Source: a virus
Strand: one strand, 5' to 3'
DNA: 64,000 bases
IMG/VR virus record: IMGVR_UViG_3300048851_000098
Span: 60,172 to 124,171 of that record
How positions within the stretch are numbered: the first letter of the stretch is position 1; the number at the start of each line of letters is the position of its first letter. The notes below the pieces were generated by a model. The model ran no database searches, had not been told where the DNA came from, and saw only the letters and a list, made by a program, of their open reading frames with translations. Position numbers and translations under genes: made by a program. Shown one piece after another: positions 30,514-64,000 of this stretch.

Positions 30514-30974
30514 TCGAATCTCACCAGCTCATCCGCGATATGGAGAGTAAGAGTATCTTCGAGATCCCATTCGCAAATGAGACTCCACAAATTATCCCAC
30601 TCTTTGACTTTTTCAATTACATCTGCAACAGTGGGATTTTCAGGGATATCCTCTTCATCAGGCCAAATCTCATCAAGAGTGAGATCAGAAGTACCTGTTA
30701 TCTCAAAATGAAATGTCTTTGGTGAATTGGAAGCAGCTTCATCGTTTCTGACTGACACGGTTGTTACAGATGATTCATGCATCATGATGTGTCTAAGTAC
30801 GCGCGATGGATCTCCCAGCGCCGCTACACGCGCTTTGTGAGCGGTTGTACGTCTGGCATGGCACTCACCGAGAATCGGAAATCCTTCTCTGTCTTTACAG
30901 AATTCGCCTGCATCTGCACAACATTCTGGACACGCGGTAATCGTTATTGCCGCTTCGAAACTATCGATCTTCAC
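30510..30974 (-). CDS. Zinc-finger-containing hypothetical protein
   Basis: CPECCA..GEFC...CHARR motif of actinophage zinc fingers. Confidence 0.6.
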   Translation of the reverse strand: MKIDSFEAAITITACPECCADAGEFCKDREGFPILGECHARRTTAHKARVAALGDPSRVLRHIMMHESSVTTVSVRNDEAASNSPKTFHFEITGTSDLTLDEIWPDEEDIPENPTVADVIEKVKEWDNLWSLICEWDLEDTLTLHIADELVRFE

Positions 30975-31966
30975 AGTCCCGCACCCCCAAGTGCCAGATC
31001 GAACGCATTTGCCTTGAATGAGCCGGGATCATCTATGGCGCGCTGAAAGCGACCGCCATCCTTGCGTTCCTCGCGCATCCAATCGGCATGCTCCACAGCA
31101 GCGTTGTAGAGGCTCCACCACGAGCGCGGGGAGTTGCCAGTGGTGTCGCCATCGGGGCCGTGGCCCTCGAAAATGAGCTGGACCTGTTCACGTGCCGCCT
31201 CGCGATTCCGTCTCTGACGCTCGCCTGTCTGATCGGTAATCGGAAACAGTCCGCTCAGGTAGGCGCGAACATCGGCTTGGGAGGGGATCGCCATAGCGAG
31301 CAGATCACCCAACGCCTTGAACTGTTCGTAGTAGTTGACGGTGACTCTGAGCACATTTGCAGCGTTTTCCATCTTCGCTTGCATGTTGCCCAGGTGTCGA
31401 AGCGTGTAGGTCCGGTCAGCGTTGTAGTCGTGCGCGAGCCTTACAGCCGCCGTGACGGTGTTCTGACAGACGATGCGGATCGGGGTCACCGCCGCAGTGA
31501 TAGAGCGCTTGCCGTCGTGAGCATTCTCGATGAATGCGTACTGGCCGATGGCGTCGCCGCCGACCTCGATGTAGTCAGGGATCTTGAGCATTACCCATAC
31601 ACGTCTGCCGTTCATCAACGAACCGGCAGTTTCGAAATGCATCTCAGACTGGAAGATTCCAGACAGGAAAGAGAATGCTTCGATGTTCTGCACTGGCGAA
31701 TAACGTCTAGAGACGATGCCAAGTGATGCACCTGTATCACTTCGCACGTTTGCAAAATAGCCAGGAATTGCTGTGAATGTTGGTTCATCCAGACTATTCA
31801 GGCTGTGATAAGCAATTGGCTTCTGAACGACATCCCAGGCGAGCCCGGAAAGATGAATCGCTTCTTCAATGCTGTCGGGCGCCTTGTCGAGCACAGCCCC
31901 CAGGCCGTGCCACGGCACTTCCCGTACAGAGAACATGTGATCGTCTTGATTGATTCCCGCCGGCAT
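30971..31966 (-). CDS. DUF932/DUF945 family protein (TIGR03299-like), copy 1
   Basis: REVPWHGLG, VRSDTG..LGIVS.RY.PVQN.EAF, ETAGSL.NGRRVW, HDG, TPIRIVCQNT. Confidence 0.9.
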   Translation of the reverse strand: MPAGINQDDHMFSVREVPWHGLGAVLDKAPDSIEEAIHLSGLAWDVVQKPIAYHSLNSLDEPTFTAIPGYFANVRSDTGASLGIVSRRYSPVQNIEAFSFLSGIFQSEMHFETAGSLMNGRRVWVMLKIPDYIEVGGDAIGQYAFIENAHDGKRSITAAVTPIRIVCQNTVTAAVRLAHDYNADRTYTLRHLGNMQAKMENAANVLRVTVNYYEQFKALGDLLAMAIPSQADVRAYLSGLFPITDQTGERQRRNREAAREQVQLIFEGHGPDGDTTGNSPRSWWSLYNAAVEHADWMREERKDGGRFQRAIDDPGSFKANAFDLALGGAGL

Positions 31967-46440: not shown

Positions 46441-47484
46441 CTAGGCGAGAACCGGAATGCCGATCCCGTCAAGCAGCTTCAGCGTGTCCATGTCCAGCCC
46501 GTCCACTTCGCCTCTTGCGGCACGCATCATGTTGCGATCCGCGCGAGTCTGCCCCTTCACGATGCTTTCGTGATGGGCGAACGTGTTGCACGTCTGCACG
46601 ACACCCCACGCGGTGCCCTTCCACGGGGCGCACCGCTGGTCATGCTCGTACATTCTGTTGAGCGCGTCACGCTTGTTCTGCGCGCGCGTCTGGCCCTTGC
46701 CCTCATCCTCGGGCATTGGGACCAACGTTCTCAGGAAGTTGTCCCAATCCTTGGCACTGACCTTGACAGCGGTCAACTCGGCGACCTGCTGTGTGAAGTC
46801 GTCAGCGATGGTGTGAATGATCGCCAGCGCGTCGCGAGCCTCTTGCAGCTTCACACGCGAATATCTGCTGTGCTTCACCTTGAGACGCTGCCGGCCGCCG
46901 TCGTCACCGTTGCCACCCTCGCGCAGTGCTGCCGACATGGTGTTATCGCACACCACGTTGGTCACCACGCGCTGATACGTCGTCGCCAGCGATCCGTCAT
47001 GTGACGTGCAGGCGAGCAGGTTGGGGCGGAACAGCACACCCTCGGGCGTTTCGAGCGTGTCGGGGACCTCGACGCTGACCCACGCGACCGCGCCACCCTT
47101 GAGGAGGCCAGCGGAACCGATGGAAAGCCCGTCATCGAGAATCGAGCCGACCTGATCCAACAGCCACTCCTCGAACTGGTGAACAGAGTAGGACTGTCTG
47201 AAGATGCCGAGAACGTGGCCTGTGTCGGAACGCATGATCGCCTTGCGCTCTCTGTCCACAGTCGTCAGAACGCCGTCTTCGTGCATGTGCGTCGCGGTCA
47301 GCGTGCCCTCGACAGCCTGCCAGTGGAAAAGCCGTCTGCGCACATCCTCGACGGGAATCGCCCCATCGTAGTGATTGCTCTGCTCGCCCTGATCCTCCGC
47401 GCGATAGTGCCACGCATGCCCGCGCTTATCGGTGAAGCCAATCAGCGTGTTGGTGTTGAGCCACTGCGAAGTCTCTTGCGACAT
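46441..47484 (-). CDS. DUF932/DUF945 family protein, copy 2
   Basis: MRSDTGHVLGIF...Y.VHQF, SAGLLKGGAVAWV, TSHDGSLAT, TNVVCDNT, WKGTAWGVVQ. Confidence 0.9.
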   Translation of the reverse strand: MSQETSQWLNTNTLIGFTDKRGHAWHYRAEDQGEQSNHYDGAIPVEDVRRRLFHWQAVEGTLTATHMHEDGVLTTVDRERKAIMRSDTGHVLGIFRQSYSVHQFEEWLLDQVGSILDDGLSIGSAGLLKGGAVAWVSVEVPDTLETPEGVLFRPNLLACTSHDGSLATTYQRVVTNVVCDNTMSAALREGGNGDDGGRQRLKVKHSRYSRVKLQEARDALAIIHTIADDFTQQVAELTAVKVSAKDWDNFLRTLVPMPEDEGKGQTRAQNKRDALNRMYEHDQRCAPWKGTAWGVVQTCNTFAHHESIVKGQTRADRNMMRAARGEVDGLDMDTLKLLDGIGIPVLA

Positions 47485-49566: not shown

Positions 49567-51193
49567 CTATGTACATAGTCCGTATGCACGCATCGCGCGT
49601 AGAGCAGCGTATGCACGCATCGGCCCTCAACTATGCGACAGCACCAAAGACCCAACAGGTATGACTGACGTGTCTATGGCGTAGTCGTCGCTCGGCACGT
49701 AGAAGCACATGACCCACGCTCTACTACCGTGCGGGCGAAGCATGCCGCGCAACTCCCGCGTGGCAACCACTGCATCACCACCGTCAACCGAACCACCGTC
49801 CGGCCCTTCATCTCTTCGCAGCATCTTTTCCCCTATAGGTAGAGAGTAGATATGGATAGGTGTGCAGTTGGTTTGCAATCACCTGTCTTTACACCACGAA
49901 CGCTGTATACATAGACTATGTACATACGATCCTATGTCTACAGTCGTGCGTATGCACGCATTCGACTACCTACACAGTGCCTCTATGCACGCATCCTCTG
50001 TCCTCACCCCCTGATATCCAGTTCCCATGTTGCGCCACGTCAGCTAAATAGGGTGCTTTTCAGAAAAAACTCTGTAGCTACAGACTATGTATACAGCCTA
50101 TATATACAGACTATGTACATACGATTTTGACCCTCAACCTACGAATATGTACATAGAGCGCCTACGTGCCAGAACACTATGTACATAGGATCGGAACGAT
50201 TCTGGCCCTCACCTACACGTACGGGCTAATGCGTGCATACCCCTTAGCTCTATTAGGCTTAGGTCTGCGTGATCTCTTGTTATTTCTGTATGTGAAGGGC
50301 ACATCAACAAGGGCCACATAGCCACCTGTAACACCACACTTGCCCTTCACACGGATGATATGCGGCTGATCCTTACTAAGACGCATTTCTGATCCTTTCT
50401 GTATGCACGCATAGAAGCTATTTGCGTAGTTCCTATGCCTACGCCCCGCATGCGCTTGTATCTGCTAACGCACACGGGGCTATTAGGCGCTGATCCTCTA
50501 TCGAAGCTTTAGCAGGAGGGCCATACAACGCTGTGCGCCGGCTCAGGCCCTCGTATCGGATAACTCCCCCTGCGCAGACAGCTAGTCCCTAGGGGCGGTA
50601 CATGGGCGGTACTCAGAACATCTTTCTGGCCTCATGTTGGCTACATACGCATGTGCGCTGCAATCAATCCGATACGTACCGATTGCATTTCCCGTGAGCG
50701 TGCGGGGTTCCTTCCTATGTAACTGATAGAGGAGAGCTGTTAGCAAGTCCTCTGCGGTTAGGGCGGGAAGTGCGGCCCAACCGACAAAAAGAAATCTACA
50801 GAGACTTAGTAGCAGTGTCAAGGGATTTCGCAAAGAATTTCCTATTCCTTCAAAAAGCCTGCATATCAGCACTTTTTGCATATCCACTTGGCACGTAGAC
50901 ATTTACCACTCAAGCCCACCCCCACCCTTTTCCTCTTGCACCCCCGCGCTCACCACCCAAAGCCGATGTACGCCCCTTTGTTCGGGATAGGTCACCGACC
51001 GATGTCTGTATACATAGGATTCCGACCAACCGACCGAACACTATGTACATAGTCTTCCGAGCAATCCGACCGACCACCCCCACCCTTCGCACTCAGCTCC
51101 CGGCCTTCTCACACATTCACCCCACCCCCGCAGACATTCACACCAAAATCTCAGAGCGTACTATAAAGATAGCTAGGGAGACTGTATATACAG
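49567..51193. repeat. Mostly non-coding region with two clustered motif families
   Basis: ~12 copies of a 12-bp palindrome CTRTRTAYAYAG (e.g. CTATGTACATAG at 49567, 50177, 51041; CTGTATATACAG at 51182); 6 copies of TATGCACGCAT (49583, 49610, 49951, 49984, 50402, reverse 50229); CCGAC runs and C/A-rich skew at 50.9-51.15 kb. Confidence 0.85.
50213..50386 (-). CDS. 57-aa basic protein (not in ORF track)
   Basis: ATG after AAAGGATCAG; MRLSKDQPHIIRVKGKCGVTGGYVALVDVPFTYRNNKRSRRPKPNRAKGYARISPYV*. Confidence 0.5.
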   Translation of the reverse strand: MRLSKDQPHIIRVKGKCGVTGGYVALVDVPFTYRNNKRSRRPKPNRAKGYARISPYV

Positions 51194-51261: not shown

Positions 51262-51495
51262 CTAGCCGTTGCGGTCCATGTGCTCGTGGTCTGCCATCTC
51301 GACGGCGAGCTTGCACAACTCGTAGTCGAGCTGAGTTGCGATTGTCATCACTGCGCGTTCGCTCTCGTCGTCACCGACAGAGATAGCGCGAAGGTATTGC
51401 GCTTCCAGCTCGTCCATTCGCACTCGCAATACGCCATACAGCGCAGGAAGATTGAATGAAGTTTTGACCTTCATAAGATTGCCGAAGATGCGCAT
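51262..51495 (-). CDS. Small helical paralog family member 1
   Basis: NLPALYGVLRVRMDELEAQY. Confidence 0.7.
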   Translation of the reverse strand: MRIFGNLMKVKTSFNLPALYGVLRVRMDELEAQYLRAISVGDDESERAVMTIATQLDYELCKLAVEMADHEHMDRNG

Positions 51496-51716
51496 TACTC
51501 ACCAAAGAGAACGGTTTCGAGACGTTCGATCTCTGTGCGCAATCTGATGGCTTGGTTGTACACCACGAATCGCCGCATGCTCTTTGGTGTGGCCCGGTTG
51601 TAATACAGAATCAGCTCGTGCATCTCATTCCAGCGCATATCGAGCACAGCCGAAAGAGCGGGCAATCTGAAGAAATACTCAAGCCGTGCGATCTTGACGT
51701 TCGTATCGGCCATCAC
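51495..51716 (-). CDS. Small helical paralog family member 2
   Basis: RLPALSAVLDMRWNEMHELI. Confidence 0.7.
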   Translation of the reverse strand: MMADTNVKIARLEYFFRLPALSAVLDMRWNEMHELILYYNRATPKSMRRFVVYNQAIRLRTEIERLETVLFGE

Positions 51717-51928
51717 ATCGGTCTGATCAGTCTCAGAAGATCCAGCACTCTGAAGACTTCGATATCCAATTCGAGGATGCGTGCTGTGGGGAATTCGGCT
51801 TCGCCGATGAACACGCTATCCCCTCTCAGCTCTCTGCGGCGCAACGACAGACAACGCGCGAGAGCGGGGTAGTCTGCTCTCCGCAGCATCTCGTACCCTG
51901 TGGCGTCGAATCGGTATTGCCTCATCAC
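51713..51928 (-). CDS. Small helical paralog family member 3
   Basis: DYPALARCLSLRRRELRGDS. Confidence 0.7.
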   Translation of the reverse strand: MMRQYRFDATGYEMLRRADYPALARCLSLRRRELRGDSVFIGEAEFPTARILELDIEVFRVLDLLRLIRPM

Positions 51929-52143
51929 GCCGGTCCGATGGGGCCTATCAGGTTGTAGATGTACTCGGCCTCGACCTGCATCATGTCGGACGTGATTGCT
52001 ACGCGCGCAGCCGTCTTCTCATCCCTGCTGCGCTGTGCAGCGGCGTACATCAACACCAGCTCTTCAAGCCGATCTTGGACGATCCGGCTGACAGCTACCA
52101 GCTCGGCTCTTTCGAGCATGAGTGTTTCCTCGAAAGCTCTCAT
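51925..52143 (-). CDS. Small helical paralog family member 4
   Basis: ELVAVSRIVQDRLEELVLMY. Confidence 0.65.
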   Translation of the reverse strand: MRAFEETLMLERAELVAVSRIVQDRLEELVLMYAAAQRSRDEKTAARVAITSDMMQVEAEYIYNLIGPIGPA

Positions 52144-52370
52144 GCTGGATAATCTTCCAAGATCTTTTCAGTTTCACCAGTAACGCGATTAGCTACTTCA
52201 GATATTCGATCAAGTCGCATTCGGCGAAAAACACCATCGCGCCTATATAGATGATCGATATAGCGATAGTGCTCTTCAAGCTCTGCCATGCGAAGCTGAG
52301 TGACTTCAGCCAATGTTGGAAGTCTTGCCAAACGAAGGTTTCGAGTGGCATCGTACGTCCAGCGCGTCAT
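52140..52370 (-). CDS. Small helical paralog family member 5
   Basis: RLPTLAEVTQLRMAELEEHY. Confidence 0.7.
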   Translation of the reverse strand: MTRWTYDATRNLRLARLPTLAEVTQLRMAELEEHYRYIDHLYRRDGVFRRMRLDRISEVANRVTGETEKILEDYPA

Positions 52371-52564
52371 TTATCGTTCGCCTCCATAAGGAGAGCGACC
52401 CTGAATACCTCAAGATCAAGCTTATTGTCAACACGACGCACTATCATGCGACGACGAACAATTTCGTAATTGCGATTTAGCTCATCGACACGCAAGCGAA
52501 TGATTCTGGCGAGAGCAGGCAAGCCAGCACGTTGCAATTCGCCCTCCCACTCTCTGTAGCTCAC
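52367..52564 (-). CDS. Small helical paralog family member 6
   Basis: GLPALARIIRLRVDELNRNY. Confidence 0.7.
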   Translation of the reverse strand: MSYREWEGELQRAGLPALARIIRLRVDELNRNYEIVRRRMIVRRVDNKLDLEVFRVALLMEANDK

Positions 52565-52773
52565 AACATCAATCTGATTGCTTTGCTGATCTCATACGAA
52601 AGTCTCATTGCTACTACATAAGAATCCGCCAGCACAACATCAATCGGTATAATATCATCGTAATCAGGTATTTCGTTGTTATATGCTTCGGTCAGCTCTT
52701 CATTGCGGATCTCAAGCACTCTGACAAGTGCAGGCAATCCAACACTGACTAGATCGGTACGCCAATCACTCAT
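52561..52773 (-). CDS. Small helical paralog family member 7
   Basis: GLPALVRVLEIRNEELTEAY. Confidence 0.7.
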   Translation of the reverse strand: MSDWRTDLVSVGLPALVRVLEIRNEELTEAYNNEIPDYDDIIPIDVVLADSYVVAMRLSYEISKAIRLML

Positions 52774-52957
52774 AATGAGCAAGAATACGCATACATTCGT
52801 GTTTTAGAATATGAACTCTGCGCATCATTTGAACTCGCTCTTCGCTGATAGGACCAAGCGGCTGAAATCTCTTTACCAGCTCAGCCTTGCGAACTTGCAC
52901 CACATGCGCGAGTCCAGGTAGACCACAATCGAAAAGCCGCTGCGAATACGGGTTCAT
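52766..52957 (-). CDS. Small helical paralog family member 8
   Basis: GLPGLAHVVQVRKAELVKRF; start MNPYS at 52957. Confidence 0.7.
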   Translation of the reverse strand: MNPYSQRLFDCGLPGLAHVVQVRKAELVKRFQPLGPISEERVQMMRRVHILKHECMRILAHYE

Positions 52958-53961
52958 TCCACTACTCGCGCTTTTACCACGAGCGGCTTGTCTTCCGGAC
53001 CCTTGACGTAGGGCGGTCGCCAGATGCGGATGCACTCTCTGCCCCCGATCATCATCACCTTCTCGGGCTTATCGCGCTTCCACTTCTCGAAGAGCTTGTT
53101 CGGTGTGCCTTCGGCCGTCTGCGCGAAATGGTGGGCGTAGTTGCCGGCGACCTCGAAGCGGTGCGAGTAGTCCACGTGCGCGCTCTCGTCGCTCTTGCGC
53201 TGGCGCCGCGAACGTTGCATCACCTTGACCGTGAGCGGGACCTGTTGGTTCTTCCGCGCAGCGCGCTTGCGCTCGTTACGCGACAGCTCTACCTCGTCCA
53301 GGTAGACGTTGGCCGATTGAAGCATTGCGATCACAGCAAGCGCACGCTCGACCTGATCGATGTGGTTCTCCATCAGCGTCCGCTTGTCTTCAGCAGAAAG
53401 CGACAATGCTGTCTCGTGAAAATCCTTGCTCCACGTAGTGAGCAAGGTCATATCGTCTTCGCGAGCCTTAGATGCATCTGGCTTCAGAGCTTGTCCTGAA
53501 AGATCGATGAATCCGCGATAAAAATCAGATTCATCTTTGTTCACGCCAATTGCCGAAGCGCTCATTGGATTGACCATCATCACTGGTGCAAATGTTCTCG
53601 ACTGCGTTGCTCCGAACCCAAGACCAGTCACGCCCAATTCTGTCTGCATCAGCAAAGCACCGATGCAGATAGATCCATCTCTGTAGCCTTCGAGATCAGA
53701 TCCCAGCGTATCTACGAAAATCGTGTCAAAGGGCAATACGCAGCCATGCATGAATTCTGCAAGGTTTTCGTATGCTCTTTTTCTAAACTTGTCGTCATTG
53801 AACAGATTAGGAAGAACGTTTACTTGCGCGGGTTTTACAGCGATCACGCGAGCCACCTGCATCAGGTTCATGATCGATCTAGAAAACTCATTGCCTTGAT
53901 ATTCGAGAGCACTCCACGCGCGCGTAAAGCCGGGCGCGCTCGCCCACACCGGCCGTCTCAT
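52954..53961 (-). CDS. Conserved phage hypothetical protein interrupting the paralog array
   Basis: C-terminal YSHRFEVAGNYAHH...IWRPPYVKGPEDKP resembles the HRxxVxGHW...W..P..KGP family. Confidence 0.7.
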   Translation of the reverse strand: MRRPVWASAPGFTRAWSALEYQGNEFSRSIMNLMQVARVIAVKPAQVNVLPNLFNDDKFRKRAYENLAEFMHGCVLPFDTIFVDTLGSDLEGYRDGSICIGALLMQTELGVTGLGFGATQSRTFAPVMMVNPMSASAIGVNKDESDFYRGFIDLSGQALKPDASKAREDDMTLLTTWSKDFHETALSLSAEDKRTLMENHIDQVERALAVIAMLQSANVYLDEVELSRNERKRAARKNQQVPLTVKVMQRSRRQRKSDESAHVDYSHRFEVAGNYAHHFAQTAEGTPNKLFEKWKRDKPEKVMMIGGRECIRIWRPPYVKGPEDKPLVVKARVVE

Positions 53962-54224
53962 TCTGATTCGCCTTCCTGTTCTAACATCAACACCACAATC
54001 CCGTACATATCGTCGTAAAGCGCTTCTACATCAGAAATGATTTCGCTATTCCACTTGAATTCTTTTGCAATGACATATTGTGAAGAAAGAAAGCTAATAC
54101 GAGTCTCCAAGACGCCGCTAAGACCTACATAGCCTTCTTCTTCTGCCATCTCTGCCCATGATCTCATATGGTCGAGCAACTTCGAGATGCGTACAGCTCG
54201 TGCGATCTCTTCAGAACGACTCAT
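53958..54224 (-). CDS. Small helical paralog family member 9
   Basis: GYVGLSGVLETRISFLSSQY. Confidence 0.6.
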   Translation of the reverse strand: MSRSEEIARAVRISKLLDHMRSWAEMAEEEGYVGLSGVLETRISFLSSQYVIAKEFKWNSEIISDVEALYDDMYGIVVLMLEQEGESE

Positions 54225-54481
54225 TATACTCTATCTGCGAGTCTAAGTACAGCGAGTTCTCTATTGAGCTTTTCCAGAGTGAGAATCAGCTTACGCTTTG
54301 TGACAAGCGATGTTCCGGTTGCATAAAAGATGATCTCGATCTCTCTCAGACGCAAAAAGATACAGTTACCCAAACCGGTGGGTCGGCGATTTCCGTGGTA
54401 GTATCGAAACCGATATCCGACAGTACGACGAATTTCTTCGAATCGTCCAACCAGATATGTATCTACATCGGTCACGCCCAC
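54224..54481 (-). CDS. Small helical paralog family member 10
   Basis: RPTGLGNCIFLRLREIEIIF. Confidence 0.6.
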   Translation of the reverse strand: MGVTDVDTYLVGRFEEIRRTVGYRFRYYHGNRRPTGLGNCIFLRLREIEIIFYATGTSLVTKRKLILTLEKLNRELAVLRLADRV

Positions 54482-54747
54482 AATGAAACTACGAGAAATA
54501 TCTCGCGATTGAGCTTTTTCATCGCCAGAATGCAGTTTGGTTTACCTGCGATTGGCCCGTCATGAAATCTAGTTACAAGCTCGTTTGCGCGATGGCGAAC
54601 GCATTCGGATATCCCCGTGTATCTGTGTCCGATAAGCAATCGCTCAGACTGCACCATGAACTGTCTCAGCTCCATCTCAAACTGAGACGCGAACACCTGC
54701 ATCAACTGCATGTGTTCCTGCTCCTCTTGAGTGCGGTAGTCGCTCAT
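54472..54747 (-). CDS. Small helical paralog family member 11
   Basis: RYTGISECVRHRANELVTRF; start MSDYR at 54747. Confidence 0.65.
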   Translation of the reverse strand: MSDYRTQEEQEHMQLMQVFASQFEMELRQFMVQSERLLIGHRYTGISECVRHRANELVTRFHDGPIAGKPNCILAMKKLNREIFLVVSLWA

Positions 54748-54977
54748 GAGGCCCGGTAGCGCGCCTTTGCGATCTCTCTGCGCAGACGGTTCGCTTCCCA
54801 CAGGTATTCCATGCGCTTCTTCGCAGGCGCGCGCGGGAAACGCTCCTCAAGCTCTTGCAAGCGCATGATGATGAGATTTGTGGTTACGGGATAGTGGATG
54901 CTCAGCGGTACGAGAGATCTGTACGCATGATTGATCGCGAATCTGAAAGACACTTCGATAGTGTCACGTGGACTCAT
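54744..54977 (-). CDS. Small helical paralog family member 12
   Basis: HYPVTTNLIIMRLQELEERF. Confidence 0.65.
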   Translation of the reverse strand: MSPRDTIEVSFRFAINHAYRSLVPLSIHYPVTTNLIIMRLQELEERFPRAPAKKRMEYLWEANRLRREIAKARYRAS

Positions 54978-55306
54978 CCCGCACGAGACAGAAGTGTGGA
55001 GATATCGTTATCAATCGCGGCCAGCTCGTTGATGATCACCATCATCTCTTCTCTGCTGGCCCACTGCGATTGGAATCTCAATTCGTCCAGTCGAAGTTCT
55101 ACAGCTTCGGAGATAGCAACAAAATTATGCTTATCTCGGAGTATCGCCGTATGAGACTGGATATTCTCGATGATTCGCTCGATCAGAACATCGGGCATGC
55201 TCTCGATCAACTCGCTGAAAGACTTACCAAGTCTGTTGACAGCGTGTGCGAGTCTCTTCATTGCTTCGGGATCAAAGTTCATGAGGAGCCTCGATCCATA
55301 TATCAA
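54974..55306 (-). CDS. Small helical paralog family member 13
   Basis: NFVAISEAVELRLDELRFQS. Confidence 0.65.
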   Translation of the reverse strand: MIYGSRLLMNFDPEAMKRLAHAVNRLGKSFSELIESMPDVLIERIIENIQSHTAILRDKHNFVAISEAVELRLDELRFQSQWASREEMMVIINELAAIDNDISTLLSRAG

Positions 55307-55377
55307 GAAAGTCCTGCTTCATTGTGTCTCCCGCCAAAGAGTTTTGGAGACACAATGATAGCAGAAAATTGCGATTA

Positions 55378-55964: not shown

Positions 55965-56134
55965 TACTGATCCTTTCGGTCATTGATTCTCTTGAGTACA
56001 TCTTTAGCACGTTGCCAAGCAAGAGGCTTCTCTCGCTGATAGACCTCATCCCGAGGCCCATTCTTCAGTGATACAAGAGTCGAGAGTGCTTCATACAGCT
56101 CATCCCGCTCTTCTCTTAAACGGGCATTCTCCAT
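55964..56134 (-). CDS. 56-aa hypothetical protein (not in ORF track)
   Basis: MENARLREERDELYEALSTLVSLKNGPRD..., TAATG-coupled at both ends. Confidence 0.55.
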   Translation of the reverse strand: MENARLREERDELYEALSTLVSLKNGPRDEVYQREKPLAWQRAKDVLKRINDRKDQ

Positions 56135-56604
56135 TACAGAGCTACCTTGTGTGAGAATGCTTCAAGACCGGTCTGCTGGCAATGATCGCATGGATTGACA
56201 CCCTTCCAGCCATTACCACCGCATCTCGAACAATCTTCGTGCTCGACCAGCAGTTTCAAAAGCTCTTTCTGACCTTCTACTACAGCTTTGAAATCTCTAC
56301 GTGCGTGGACCAGCATTCTGTCTTTGTCAGCCAACTTAGCGTTGAGAAGATCTCGACGTTGCATATAATCGATCTTCAAAGCGCCAAGCTCGCTATCCTG
56401 TTTGATCATGCGAGCTTCAAGACGTGCAAGCTTTTCTTGCATTCTTCTTTGATATTCGCCAGATCCACTTGCACGAACGAATTCCACTCTTTCGCGAACG
56501 GGATGGTTACATCTTTTACAGCGCGTGCGGAATCGTCCCCAATCAGCAGGATCACCGCATTTGCCACACACCCAAAGCTCTATTGTGGAATTCTCGTCCA
56601 TCAC
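56134..56604 (-). CDS. Zn-finger/coiled-coil protein
   Basis: CGKC, CKRC, coiled coil, C-terminal CSRCGGNG...CDHCQQTG (DnaJ-like CxxCxGxG). Confidence 0.7.
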   Translation of the reverse strand: MMDENSTIELWVCGKCGDPADWGRFRTRCKRCNHPVRERVEFVRASGSGEYQRRMQEKLARLEARMIKQDSELGALKIDYMQRRDLLNAKLADKDRMLVHARRDFKAVVEGQKELLKLLVEHEDCSRCGGNGWKGVNPCDHCQQTGLEAFSHKVAL

Positions 56605-63153: not shown

Positions 63154-64000
63154 ATGGCTGCGCCGACTTTTTCTGTTGGGGCCGGTACAACGGCGATCAG
63201 CGACAGAACGGTATCGCTGGCTGGTCCTGTGGGCCGCAGAGTCGGCGAGCTTCTTCTCGCTTCCTTGTACGTCTACAACACAGAAGCGATTACTACTCCG
63301 TCCGGATGGAATCTGATCAATCAGACAGCCGCTCCGGCGTTTCAGATTATTTCTTACTGGCGAATCGCGACTGGTGATTCGTCGGACACTTTCACTGCTT
63401 CGTGGACTAATTCCGTATATCGGCAGCTTGCAGTTGGATCGTTTGCAGGTGCCGCAAGAGTAAGACCAATCATTGCAGTAGGCGCTGATAACAGCGGCAC
63501 TTCAACTTCTCTCCTCGCTAGAGGATTCAACCTGCCCGTAAAAGATTGTCTTCTGTTTTGGGCAGGTGGCGTTGATACTGTTCGAACTTTTACAGTTCCA
63601 TCTGGTTTTACACGCTATGACGATAACGACGGCGTATATATTGGTCTTGCGGAGCAATCATCGGTAGGTGCAACAGGCGATAAGACCGGTACTGTAAATA
63701 CGTCAGTTGCATGGGTTACGCATATGTTTGCGATTGCTCCTGCATCTATGTATTACGACGCAGTAATGGCTGATTCACCTACTGCGTACTTTCCGCTGAA
63801 TGAAGCATCTGGAACGAGTGCACTCGATGCCATGGGAGGGGCTTCGGGCACTTATACCGGCGGTTACACACTTGCTCAAACTTCGCTAATTGCTGACGAT
63901 AATAGAGCAGTTCTGTTGAATGGTTCTACTGGCTATGTCAGAGCTGCTGATCGAGCCGCTTTTGATATTGGCGATGTATTTACGCTCGAAGCATGGGTTC
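63154..64000 (+). CDS. Minor tail protein with LamG/ConA-like domain (3' truncated)
   Basis: Open frame from ATG 63154 to the window end; YDAVMADSPTAYFPLNEASGT...AVLLNGSTGYV...FTLEAWV is a LamG-like signature. Confidence 0.8.
   Translation, partial: MAAPTFSVGAGTTAISDRTVSLAGPVGRRVGELLLASLYVYNTEAITTPSGWNLINQTAAPAFQIISYWRIATGDSSDTFTASWTNSVYRQLAVGSFAGAARVRPIIAVGADNSGTSTSLLARGFNLPVKDCLLFWAGGVDTVRTFTVPSGFTRYDDNDGVYIGLAEQSSVGATGDKTGTVNTSVAWVTHMFAIAPASMYYDAVMADSPTAYFPLNEASGTSALDAMGGASGTYTGGYTLAQTSLIADDNRAVLLNGSTGYVRAADRAAFDIGDVFTLEAWV

What the first reader, a model, noticed from the sequence alone, without database searches (positions are those of the whole stretch)
51262..55306. Tandem array of 13 highly diverged small helical paralogs
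Seen: 13 tightly packed, mostly stop/start-overlapping ORFs of ~63-110 aa share phi-(P/x)-(A/G)-(L/I/V)-x2-phi-phi-x2-R-x2-E-L-x3-(Y/F), followed by a second amphipathic helix, with little identity elsewhere and no obvious DNA repeats. Inference: an old gene expansion under diversifying selection, as expected for anti-defence proteins or adaptors against a variable host target. The helix spacing in some members loosely recalls UVR (UvrB/C, ClpC/McsA) coiled coils.
Basis: partly seen in the sequence, partly recalled or inferred. Interest (0 to 1): 0.75.

Follow-up and report, generated by a model that had tools for sequence, protein, structure and literature searches.

The report
Thirteen-copy small helical phage protein array
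An uncultivated 124-kb soil phage has one tightly coupled operon of 13 very different copies of a tiny three-helix protein found nowhere else in public data. The operon is wrapped around a gene that resembles the anti-CRISPR AcrVA2, which suggests, without proof, a panel of small binding proteins aimed at host defences.

Summary
All 13 small minus-strand ORFs at 51262-55306 belong to one family. Each is recognised by an HMM of the other 12 (9-34 bits; at most 1 of 1000 shuffles reaches the real score). All lie in the best codon-usage frame. No other ORF in the genome joins the family.

The family has no relative in searches covering 5.8 and 1.84 billion proteins, and no Pfam, PHROG, NCBIfam or PDB match. 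AlphaFold models give a generic three-helix bundle. Conserved residues are heptad core positions plus an Arg/Glu/Glu cluster. Surfaces and charge (pI 4.2-10.6) have diverged.

It is linked to its neighbours by the same stop/start overlaps. It is probably a distant AcrVA2-like protein (ESM Atlas 0.97; hhalign 56%), but it lacks AcrVA2's HxRxxH residues.

The UVR resemblance is not supported, and diversifying selection cannot be tested because no orthologues exist. The best reading (confidence about 0.4) is an early-expressed panel of small binders against host or rival-element proteins.

This scan has already found comparable small-helical paralog arrays in many other large phages, so this is a new family within a recurring, uncharacterised pattern.

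The parts
55320..55357 (.). Perfect 12-bp inverted repeat CATTGTGTCTCC-N14-GGAGACACAATG, unique in the genome, lying 14 nt upstream of the TTG start of the first array gene and 38 nt upstream of its ATG start. Candidate operator, or a U-less terminator of the upstream gene.
   Evidence: RNAfold gives -39.3 kcal/mol for the 116-nt intergenic stretch; no other copy with up to 2 mismatches pairs elsewhere in the genome
54974..55306 (-). p13, the first gene of the chain. It is 110 aa from TTG 55306 or 102 aa from ATG 55282. It has an N-terminal extension with a weak ribbon-helix-helix-like match, followed by the family three-helix domain (residues 38-109).
   Evidence: RHH_1 E 0.0024, 18.2 bits, below the 20.5 cut-off; AF2 pLDDT 86; 22.4 bits, 0/1000 shuffles
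54744..54977 (-). p12, 77 aa, pI 10.6, family member; ATGA overlap with p13
   Evidence: 19.1 bits, 0/1000
54472..54747 (-). p11, 91 aa from the ATG that overlaps the p12 stop; family member (subgroup B)
   Evidence: z 10.1 to p10; 22.5 bits
54224..54475 (-). p10, 83 aa from the GTG that overlaps the p11 stop. It is the weakest member and is tied to the family mainly through p11.
   Evidence: blastp 1e-4 to p11; 9.3 bits, 1/1000 shuffles
53958..54224 (-). p09, 88 aa, pI 4.4, family member in which Phe replaces the near-invariant Glu
   Evidence: E 0.0037; 12.1 bits, 0/1000
52954..53961 (-). 335-aa gene unrelated to the array family and coupled by ATGA overlaps on both sides. Probably a distant AcrVA2-like protein with a conserved C-terminal SHRFEV..G...HH....IRIWRPPYVKGPEDKPL.
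   Evidence: ESM Atlas 0.97, 224/256 features; 28 of 30 hits fall in clusters where some members carry PF26125; hhalign 55.8%, E 1.6e-5, collinear over 299 columns
52766..52957 (-). p08, 63 aa from the ATG that overlaps the stop of the 335-aa gene; family member (subgroup A)
   Evidence: E 3e-6; 24.9 bits
52561..52773 (-). p07, 70 aa from ATG, pI 4.2, family member
   Evidence: (E 1.6e-8)
52367..52564 (-). p06, 65 aa, the most central member of the family, with no loop between helices 2 and 3
   Evidence: E 5.8e-11; AF2 pLDDT 92
52140..52370 (-). p05, 76 aa, family member
   Evidence: (E 4e-8)
51925..52143 (-). p04, 72 aa, family member lacking the Pro (LVAV in place of LPAL)
   Evidence: E 0.021; 22.1 bits, 0/1000
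51713..51928 (-). p03, 71 aa, family member
   Evidence: E 3.5e-4; z 8.9 to p06
51495..51716 (-). p02, 73 aa, family member
   Evidence: (E 9e-5)
51262..51495 (-). p01, 77 aa, the last gene of the chain, family member
   Evidence: E 2.4e-9; 34.4 bits
51222..51256 (-). Terminator-like hairpin (AAATCCGT-AGAAAA-ACGGATTTT, followed by a T run) a few nt after the p01 stop codon
   Evidence: RNAfold shows a 13-pair stem. The consensus scan did not list it.

Best explanation
The locus is a single 14-cistron operon on the minus strand. It is bounded upstream by a unique 12-bp palindrome and downstream by a terminator-like hairpin, and every gene starts on or within a few bases of the previous stop codon. 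Thirteen of the genes are old tandem duplicates of one orphan mini-protein of 63-102 aa that folds as an antiparallel three-helix bundle.

The family keeps only its bundle core: heptad hydrophobic positions, an invariant Arg in a core position of helix 2, and Glu residues in helices 2 and 3. Almost every surface position and the net charge have drifted apart.

The most likely reading is a panel of small stoichiometric binders (inhibitors, decoys or antitoxin-like neutralisers). They would be made together early in infection, each fitted to a different host defence or takeover target, or to a protein of a rival mobile element. They would work alongside the embedded AcrVA2-like protein, whose characterised relatives shut down specific target proteins.

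Shown here: paralogy, coding potential, operon anatomy, predicted fold, orphan status, and the AcrVA2-like neighbour. Inferred: early expression, binding, and the anti-defence role.
For: - Family membership of all 13 members.
- Similarity decays with distance along the array, as expected for tandem duplication.
- All members have the best coding score in the annotated frame.
- All junctions overlap.
- The genome's start-associated motif AAAGGATCAG has exact copies in front of many flanking minus-strand genes but none inside 51262-55306. The chain therefore relies on coupling from one entry point.
- AF2 models are confident and all-helical (pLDDT 92 and 86). Besides the non-significant PezA top hit, designed three-helix bundles and mini-protein binders recur among the nearest PDB folds.
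- Conservation follows an a/d heptad pattern, with R77, E80 and E116 (alignment columns) conserved and surface-column entropy above 2.5 bits. pI ranges from 4.2 to 10.6.
- The embedded 335-aa gene is AcrVA2-like by ESM Atlas (0.97, 224/256 features) and by profile-profile alignment to verified AcrVA2 homologues (55.8%, E 1.6e-5). Its relatives sit on actinophage contigs and actinobacterial plasmids.
- AcrVA2 homologues act in conflicts between mobile elements and host defences (bioRxiv 10.1101/2022.11.29.518452).
- The operon lies 2-6 kb from the divergent region that heads the long minus-strand arm.
- A precedent exists for many diverged copies of an anti-CRISPR in one viral genome: AcrID1 in Rudiviridae (PMC11065993).
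Against: - There is no functional evidence of any kind.
- No orthologue exists, so neither co-occurrence with defence systems nor selection can be measured.
- The AcrVA2-like assignment is only moderate. The residues aligned to AcrVA2's essential H286/R288/H291 are F/V/N in this protein.
- The small family is absent from 38 other viral loci that carry AcrVA2-like homologues, so the association is not conserved.
- Equal, coupled translation of all 14 genes would suit a hetero-oligomeric complex at least as well as independent binders.
- Early timing is inferred from position only.
- A three-helix bundle is too generic a fold to indicate function.
Confidence: 0.4

Rival explanations
1. The paralogs assemble with one another into a hetero-oligomeric helical-bundle complex. 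This could be a scaffold, a regulatory particle, or a partner or adaptor set for the embedded AcrVA2-like protein. The conserved core and Arg/Glu cluster would then form the shared interface.
For: All 14 genes form one translationally coupled chain, which favours fixed stoichiometry. Conserved residues lie on one heptad stripe. In the AF2 monomer model p06 is a single long helix, as coiled-coil subunits often are. Acidic and basic members alternate (pI 4.2-10.6), which would allow charge pairing.
Against: Stop/start overlaps are common in actinophage gene clusters regardless of function (general knowledge). p13 is modelled as a self-contained bundle with pTM 0.68. No multimer prediction could be run. 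No other AcrVA2-like locus carries such partners.
Confidence: 0.18
2. The proteins serve conflict between mobile elements rather than host defence. They would act in superinfection exclusion or inhibit rival phages or plasmids, in the manner of the AcrVA2 homologue FinQ, which blocks F-plasmid transfer.
For: AcrVA2 homologues usually occur where Cas12a is absent, and FinQ acts against another plasmid (bioRxiv 10.1101/2022.11.29.518452). Homologues of the embedded gene are frequent on actinobacterial plasmids.
Against: This rests on the same indirect evidence as the main reading. The genome shows no sign of a lysogenic lifestyle in the window, where exclusion genes would pay off most. That absence is weak evidence.
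Confidence: 0.15
3. The proteins are small DNA- or RNA-binding regulators. p13 would be a ribbon-helix-helix repressor acting on the upstream palindrome, and the rest would be diverged regulators of phage or host genes.
For: p13 residues 12-35 match RHH_1 at E 0.0024. A unique perfect 12-bp palindrome sits 14-38 nt upstream of its start. Several members are strongly basic, with pI 9.2-10.6.
Against: The RHH score is below the curated cut-off, and the match concerns only p13's private N-terminal extension, not the family domain. With the ATG start preferred by the gene caller, the beta-strand is missing. Half of the members are acidic, with pI 4.2-5.1. AF2 predicts no strand. No HTH or RHH profile hits the shared domain.
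Confidence: 0.12
4. The array consists of largely neutral leftover duplicates or mis-called ORFs and has no present function.
For: It has no homologues anywhere and is extremely diverged.
Against: All 13 frames are open and score best of six by codon usage. Start/stop coupling is intact at every junction. Core positions are maintained in all copies despite saturation elsewhere. AF2 folds two members with confidence.
Confidence: 0.05

Closest known systems
AcrID1 paralog clusters of Rudiviridae (SIRV1/2/3), as described in PMC11065993
   Same: Many highly diverged copies (minimum identity 7.3%) of one small protein family sit close together in a single viral genome, among early accessory genes. 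That paper interprets this as duplication and functional diversification of an anti-defence protein.
   Different: AcrID1 occurs in archaeal viruses and has a proven anti-CRISPR member. Its copies mostly have their own conserved promoter rather than forming one coupled operon. No sequence relation to the present family was found or could be tested here.
Arrays of small three-helix paralogs in other large phages noted earlier in this scan (e1-147124, the 'LGTNYQ' family = phrog_4148, 26 copies; e1-5406085, about 40 copies)
   Same: They are tandem, overlapping operons of about 70-aa diverged helical paralogs of unknown function in the accessory or early regions of large phages.
   Different: The family here is different: no member matches any PHROG, including phrog_4148. 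The host range is actinophage-like rather than coliphage or T4-like. Only here is an AcrVA2-like gene embedded.
AcrVA2 / FinQ family (PDB 7CI1; Pfam PF26125 AcrVA2-like). This applies to the embedded 335-aa gene only.
   Same: Similar size. The N-terminal region varies and the C-terminal basic beta-rich motif is conserved (RGHW...W..P..V). The genes are carried on phages and plasmids. ESM Atlas neighbours carry PF26125, and hhalign to verified homologues gives 55.8% over the full length.
   Different: Neither BLAST nor HMM links it to 7CI1. The residues aligned to the essential H286/R288/H291 are F269/V271/N274, although an invariant S-H-R lies just upstream. No Cas12a context is known.
Epsilon/PezA antitoxin three-helix bundle (PDB 2P5T)
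   Same: It is the best, though non-significant, structural neighbour of the p13 model (TM 0.55-0.66). It is a small three-helix bundle that neutralises a partner protein by binding, and in PezA it is likewise preceded by an N-terminal DNA-binding domain.
   Different: Foldseek E is 1.9. There is no sequence similarity and no zeta/PezT-like toxin gene nearby.
   Same: Both are short and alpha-helical, with Arg/Glu-rich amphipathic helices.
   Different: No profile match at E<=10 in any member. No UVR-containing chain appears in the PDB profile search. The unit has three helices and 60-70 aa rather than a 36-aa hairpin.

Membership tests
UVR domain (PF02151) | Sequence match to the UVR profile | tested here: not met
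   None of the 13 members hits UVR at E<=10. No UvrB/UvrC/McsA chain is among the PDB hits at E<=10.
UVR domain (PF02151) | About 36-aa two-helix hairpin | tested here: not met
   The AF2 models show a 60-70-aa unit with three helices.
Ribbon-helix-helix (PF01402), p13 N-terminus only | Profile score above the curated cut-off | tested here: not met
   18.2 bits against a cut-off of 20.5, E 0.0024, residues 12-35.
Ribbon-helix-helix (PF01402), p13 N-terminus only | N-terminal beta-strand followed by two helices, with a palindromic operator | tested here: inconclusive
   Helices at 13-26 and 30-36 fit, but no strand is predicted and pLDDT there is 50-77. The strand exists only with the TTG start. 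A unique palindrome lies upstream. Binding was not tested.
AcrVA2-like (PF26125), 335-aa gene | Match to the Pfam profile | not testable with these tools
   PF26125 is absent from the local Pfam library. The local Pfam scan therefore says nothing on this point.
AcrVA2-like (PF26125), 335-aa gene | Detectable homology to verified AcrVA2 (7CI1) relatives | tested here: inconclusive
   hhalign of a 23-sequence profile against 10 AcrVA2 homologues gives 55.8%, E 1.6e-5, over 299 collinear columns. ESM Atlas gives 0.97 with 224/256 features. HMM searches against the PDB find nothing.
AcrVA2-like (PF26125), 335-aa gene | C-terminal H-x-R-x-x-H (H286/R288/H291) required for mRNA down-regulation | tested here: not met
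   The aligned residues are F269/V271/N274. The wider actinobacterial clade keeps only the last His (GHWR). An invariant S266-H267-R268 lies 2-3 residues upstream.
AcrVA2-like (PF26125), 335-aa gene | Carried on diverse mobile elements, with a variable N-terminus and a conserved C-terminus | tested here: met
   38 viral contigs and 65 actinobacterial plasmids carry relatives. In most of them only the C-terminal 90-140 aa align.
phrog_4148 'LGTNYQ' small-paralog family | Match to the PHROG profile | tested here: not met
   phrog_4148 is not among the PHROG matches at E<=1; the only matches are weak (E >= 0.084), each in a single member and each to another family.
HAMP domain | Match to HAMP profiles; helix-connector-helix with a conserved Pro and Gly | tested here: not met
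   The family HMM hit a poly-HAMP protein only by summing repeats of 3.3 bits or less, and these aligned to the second HAMP helix. No member hits HAMP in Pfam.
Epsilon/PezA antitoxin | Fold match plus an adjacent zeta-type toxin gene | tested here: inconclusive
   Foldseek E 1.9, TM 0.55-0.66. No toxin-like neighbour was found.
AcrID1-type multi-copy anti-CRISPR family | Sequence homology to AcrID1 | not tested
   No AcrID1 sequence was fetched. Only the organisational analogy is claimed (PMC11065993).

The most novel reading that the evidence does not exclude
The 13 mini-proteins and the embedded AcrVA2-like protein form one system. The three-helix paralogs would be interchangeable recognition modules, each gripping a different host defence protein or nascent peptide. 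They would either neutralise the target directly or hand it to the AcrVA2-like effector. The phage would thus carry a hard-wired 'library' of binders that widens the target range of a single silencing enzyme.
Probability: 0.07. Interest if true: 0.85.

Novelty: new variant of a known kind. Interest (0 to 1): 0.5.

Why it matters
Large phages repeatedly devote kilobases to arrays of tiny, fast-diverging helical paralogs, and no such array has a known function. This one is compact (14 genes, 4 kb) and cleanly bounded, and it has no other copies in the genome. It is the first in this scan seen to be physically and translationally tied to a relative of a characterised anti-defence protein (AcrVA2). 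That gives a concrete hypothesis: the paralogs are binders of host defence or rival-element proteins. It also gives a small set of proteins that could be synthesised and screened.

If the hypothesis holds, it would add a new anti-defence protein family. It would also illustrate how phages diversify a minimal three-helix scaffold, the same scaffold protein engineers use for designed binders. If it fails, the array is still a clean case of an orphan family maintained by selection on its core alone.

Tried and rejected
- **No external homologues.** These searches returned only the window's own proteins or nothing: a word-indexed search of 5.8 billion proteins with profiles of p01-p08 and p09-p13, a full HMMER scan of 1.84 billion representatives, megablast against phages, PHROGs, Pfam and NCBIfam, a PDB sequence profile and the ESM Atlas.
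- **Two false positives.** Both hits (P0009, P0010) are repeat proteins whose per-repeat scores are at most 10.5 bits, so they were rejected.
- **Structure searches.** Foldseek against PDB and BFVD gave no hit with E<=0.001. The pdb_via and pdb_via_wide libraries were not installed.
- **Contig context.** Viral contigs were used instead.
- **Family near other AcrVA2-like genes.** The family HMM found nothing in 38 AcrVA2-like loci. No comparable paralog arrays lie beside them.
- **The 335-aa protein.** tblastn against phages and plasmids found no match. Its profile found nothing in the PDB. PF26125 is not in the local Pfam.
- **Promoters and terminators.** The consensus scan found no more sites than in shuffles.
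- **Sequencing runs.** One soil-metagenome DNA run, probably the source, holds the stretch as contigs at depth about 21 with no variants. No RNA holder is listed.
- **Literature.** Searches for actinophage paralog arrays gave nothing relevant.
- **Not possible here.** No multimer prediction was available.

Full report
**Setting**

The window is the last 64 kb of a single 124,171-bp contig. The contig encodes a portal, a Ro60-like protein and AAA-ATPases. Its best relatives are in phages of Mycobacterium, Rhodococcus, Gordonia, Microbacterium and Streptomyces, but no close relative exists in GenBank phages. It is therefore an orphan, actinophage-like genome from a soil metagenome. GC skew and ORF orientation show a long minus-strand arm from about 57,200 down to about 12,000. 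The finding lies 2-6 kb from the head of that arm.

**Checking the observation**

Thirteen small minus-strand ORFs lie between 51262 and 55306. Reading the strand shows that every junction is a stop/start overlap: ATGA, GTGA, TAATG, and one 8-nt overlap. This fixes the likeliest starts of four genes:
- p07 is 70 aa.
- p08 is 63 aa.
- p10 is 83 aa.
- p11 is 91 aa.

These lengths equal those of the gene calls stored in the protein collections.

All six tests below agree that the 13 ORFs form one family:
- **Pairwise BLASTP** within the set links p01-p08 (E down to 8e-7) and links p10 to p11 (1e-4).
- **An HMM of the 8 downstream members, leaving out the tested one when it was among them,** was searched against all 1108 six-frame ORFs of the genome. 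Eight members ranked first and four ranked 2-4.
- **An HMM of the other 12** scores each member at 9.3-34.4 bits. No shuffle in 1000 reached the real score, except 1 in 1000 for p10.
- **The 13-member HMM** finds no further member in the genome; the next best hit has E 0.066.
- **Codon usage** puts all 13 in the best of six frames.
- **DNA repeats** are absent apart from 14-29-nt traces over the conserved motif.

First, a 335-aa unrelated gene (52954-53961) sits between members 8 and 9 and is coupled to both by ATGA overlaps. Second, the domain has three helices, not two.

**Anatomy of the family**

AlphaFold2 with the 13-sequence alignment models p06 at pLDDT 92, with a short helix followed by a long helix. 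It models p13 at pLDDT 86 and pTM 0.68. In p13 the family domain is helix 38-60, a turn, helix 63-80, a 4-residue loop, and helix 85-109.

Most members have Pro/Gly-rich loops of 3-13 residues at the second turn.

Column statistics show hydrophobic positions in a/d heptad spacing in helices 2 and 3. One invariant Arg occupies a core position. A Glu lies three residues later (12/13), and another Glu lies in helix 3 (11/13). Almost all other columns have entropy above 2.5 bits. Net charge ranges from -10 to +7, and pI from 4.2 to 10.6.

Smith-Waterman z-scores split the family into p01-p08 and p10-p12, with p09 and p13 as outliers. Similarity falls with distance along the array (Spearman -0.31, permutation p 0.011). 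This pattern is expected for old stepwise tandem duplication.

**Operon boundaries**

A perfect 12-bp inverted repeat with a 14-nt spacer, unique in the genome, lies 14-38 nt upstream of p13. A 13-pair hairpin followed by a T run lies a few nt after the p01 stop codon.

I confirmed exact copies in front of many flanking minus-strand genes, against a chance expectation of about 4. None occurs inside the 14-gene chain. Translation of the chain therefore probably depends on coupling from p13.

**Search for relatives and known families**

No homologue of the small proteins was found in the following searches:
- 5.8 billion clustered proteins;
- a full HMMER pass over 1.84 billion representatives;
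- Pfam, PHROGs and NCBIfam;
- PDB sequences;
- the ESM Atlas.

The only two hits are a coiled-coil repeat protein and a poly-HAMP chemoreceptor. Their scores are sums of repeats worth at most 10.5 bits each, so I rejected them.

Foldseek found no significant neighbour in PDB or BFVD. The nearest folds are generic three-helix bundles. The PezA antitoxin comes first at E 1.9, and designed three-helix bundles and mini-protein binders recur among the rest.

The UVR idea fails. There is no UVR profile hit at E<=10 and no UVR-containing chain in the PDB search.

p13 alone has a private N-terminal extension with a sub-threshold ribbon-helix-helix match (18.2 bits against a cut-off of 20.5). Together with the palindrome, this makes an autoregulatory role for p13 possible but unproven.

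**The embedded 335-aa gene**

This gene has metagenomic homologues with a strongly conserved C-terminus. It also has relatives on 38 viral contigs and 65 actinobacterial plasmids. Most of these share only the C-terminal 90-140 residues.

The ESM Atlas places it at 0.97 (224 of 256 features). Of 30 neighbours, 28 belong to clusters in which 22-45% of members carry Pfam PF26125, 'AcrVA2-like'. That Pfam model is not in the local library, so I tested the lead independently:
- I fetched the AcrVA2-annotated gene of Shewanella phage vB_SbaS_Y11 (PMC10846135).
- I verified that it matches the AcrVA2 crystal chain 7CI1 at E 1.5e-72.
- I collected nine further homologues.
- I ran hhalign against a 23-sequence profile of the actinobacterial family. 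The result was 55.8% probability, E 1.6e-5, collinear over 299 columns. It aligned the LP(F/D)W region and the C-terminal RGHW...W.P..V motif.

The link is thus probable but not secure. The residues aligned to AcrVA2's essential H286/R288/H291 (bioRxiv 10.1101/2022.11.29.518452) are F/V/N in this protein, although an invariant S-H-R lies just upstream.

According to that preprint, AcrVA2 binds the nascent N-terminus of Cas12a and triggers loss of its mRNA. Its homologues, including FinQ, are widespread on mobile elements that lack Cas12a.

The small family does not accompany AcrVA2-like genes elsewhere. The association is therefore specific to this phage.

**Interpretation**

- **Shown:** an old, selectively maintained, orphan 13-member family of three-helix mini-proteins. 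They are co-translated in one operon with a probable AcrVA2-like protein, near the head of the accessory arm of a large phage.
- **Inferred:** the proteins are small binders with a common scaffold and divergent surfaces. They would be made early and aimed at different host defence or takeover targets, or at rival elements. I give this about 0.4.

The rival readings are:
- a hetero-oligomeric complex or adaptor set (0.18);
- inter-element conflict or exclusion (0.15);
- nucleic-acid-binding regulators (0.12);
- non-functional relics (0.05).

The closest documented parallel is the clustered, highly diverged AcrID1 paralogs of rudiviruses (PMC11065993).

Earlier notes of this scan describe similar arrays of about 70-aa helical paralogs in many other large phages. 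This array belongs to none of those families. The pattern is therefore recurrent, while this family and its AcrVA2-like companion are new.

**Limits**

- No orthologues exist, so dN/dS could not be measured.
- No multimer or third fold job was available.
- The look-up of encoding contigs and the VIA-align libraries were unavailable.

Noticed in passing
window 52954-53961 (-): The 335-aa gene inside the array is a probable distant AcrVA2-like protein. Its clade has replaced AcrVA2's HxRxxH with an invariant S-H-R plus GN(F/Y)AHH. Relatives are common on actinobacterial plasmids and actinophage contigs and are all annotated as hypothetical.
   Followed up: yes
L001:8901-9878 (IMGVR_UViG_3300003465_000044): In this high-GC actinophage contig the full-length homologue of the 335-aa protein sits in the structural module, between the portal plus an HNH gene and a MuF-like head-morphogenesis gene. 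The gene therefore behaves as a mobile insert with no fixed neighbourhood.
   Followed up: partly
window 55320-55357: A perfect 12-bp palindrome with a 14-nt spacer, unique in the 124-kb genome, lies between a 63-aa membrane-protein gene and the first array gene.
   Followed up: partly
window 14069-50398 and 55967 (minus strand): The start-associated motif AAAGGATCAG has 36 matches with up to 1 mismatch against about 4 expected by chance, nearly all on the minus strand in front of genes. It skips the whole 14-gene chain. Copies at 50366-50398 and 50490 lie in the 'non-coding' repeat region and may mark unannotated small genes, for example the 57-aa ORF 50213-50386.
   Followed up: partly
window 63154-64000 and genome 76-2022: The ORF running off the contig's end matches the start of the contig (28 aa, 93% identity). 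This suggests a circular or terminally redundant assembly.
   Followed up: no
window 51262-55306: Third-position GC differs in blocks along the array: p01-p04 0.66-0.71, p05-p10 0.35-0.50, p11-p13 and the 335-aa gene 0.57-0.65. The genome's long ORFs average 0.57 +/- 0.09. This may reflect mosaic assembly of the array or simply the small size of the genes.
   Followed up: no
window 56134-56604 (-): A 156-aa protein upstream of the array has two CxxC pairs at each end (weak double-zinc-ribbon hit, E 0.0012) flanking a coiled-coil segment. Its function is unknown.
   Followed up: no
window 46441-47484 and 30971-31966 (-): Two paralogous genes (26% identity over 201 aa, E 7e-12). The one at 46441-47484, which was scanned against PHROGs, belongs to phrog_1221, a family widespread in actinophages. 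Outside the array they are one of only three paralog pairs detectable by BLAST in the genome (E <= 1e-4); a second of the three is just the contig-end overlap noted above.
   Followed up: no
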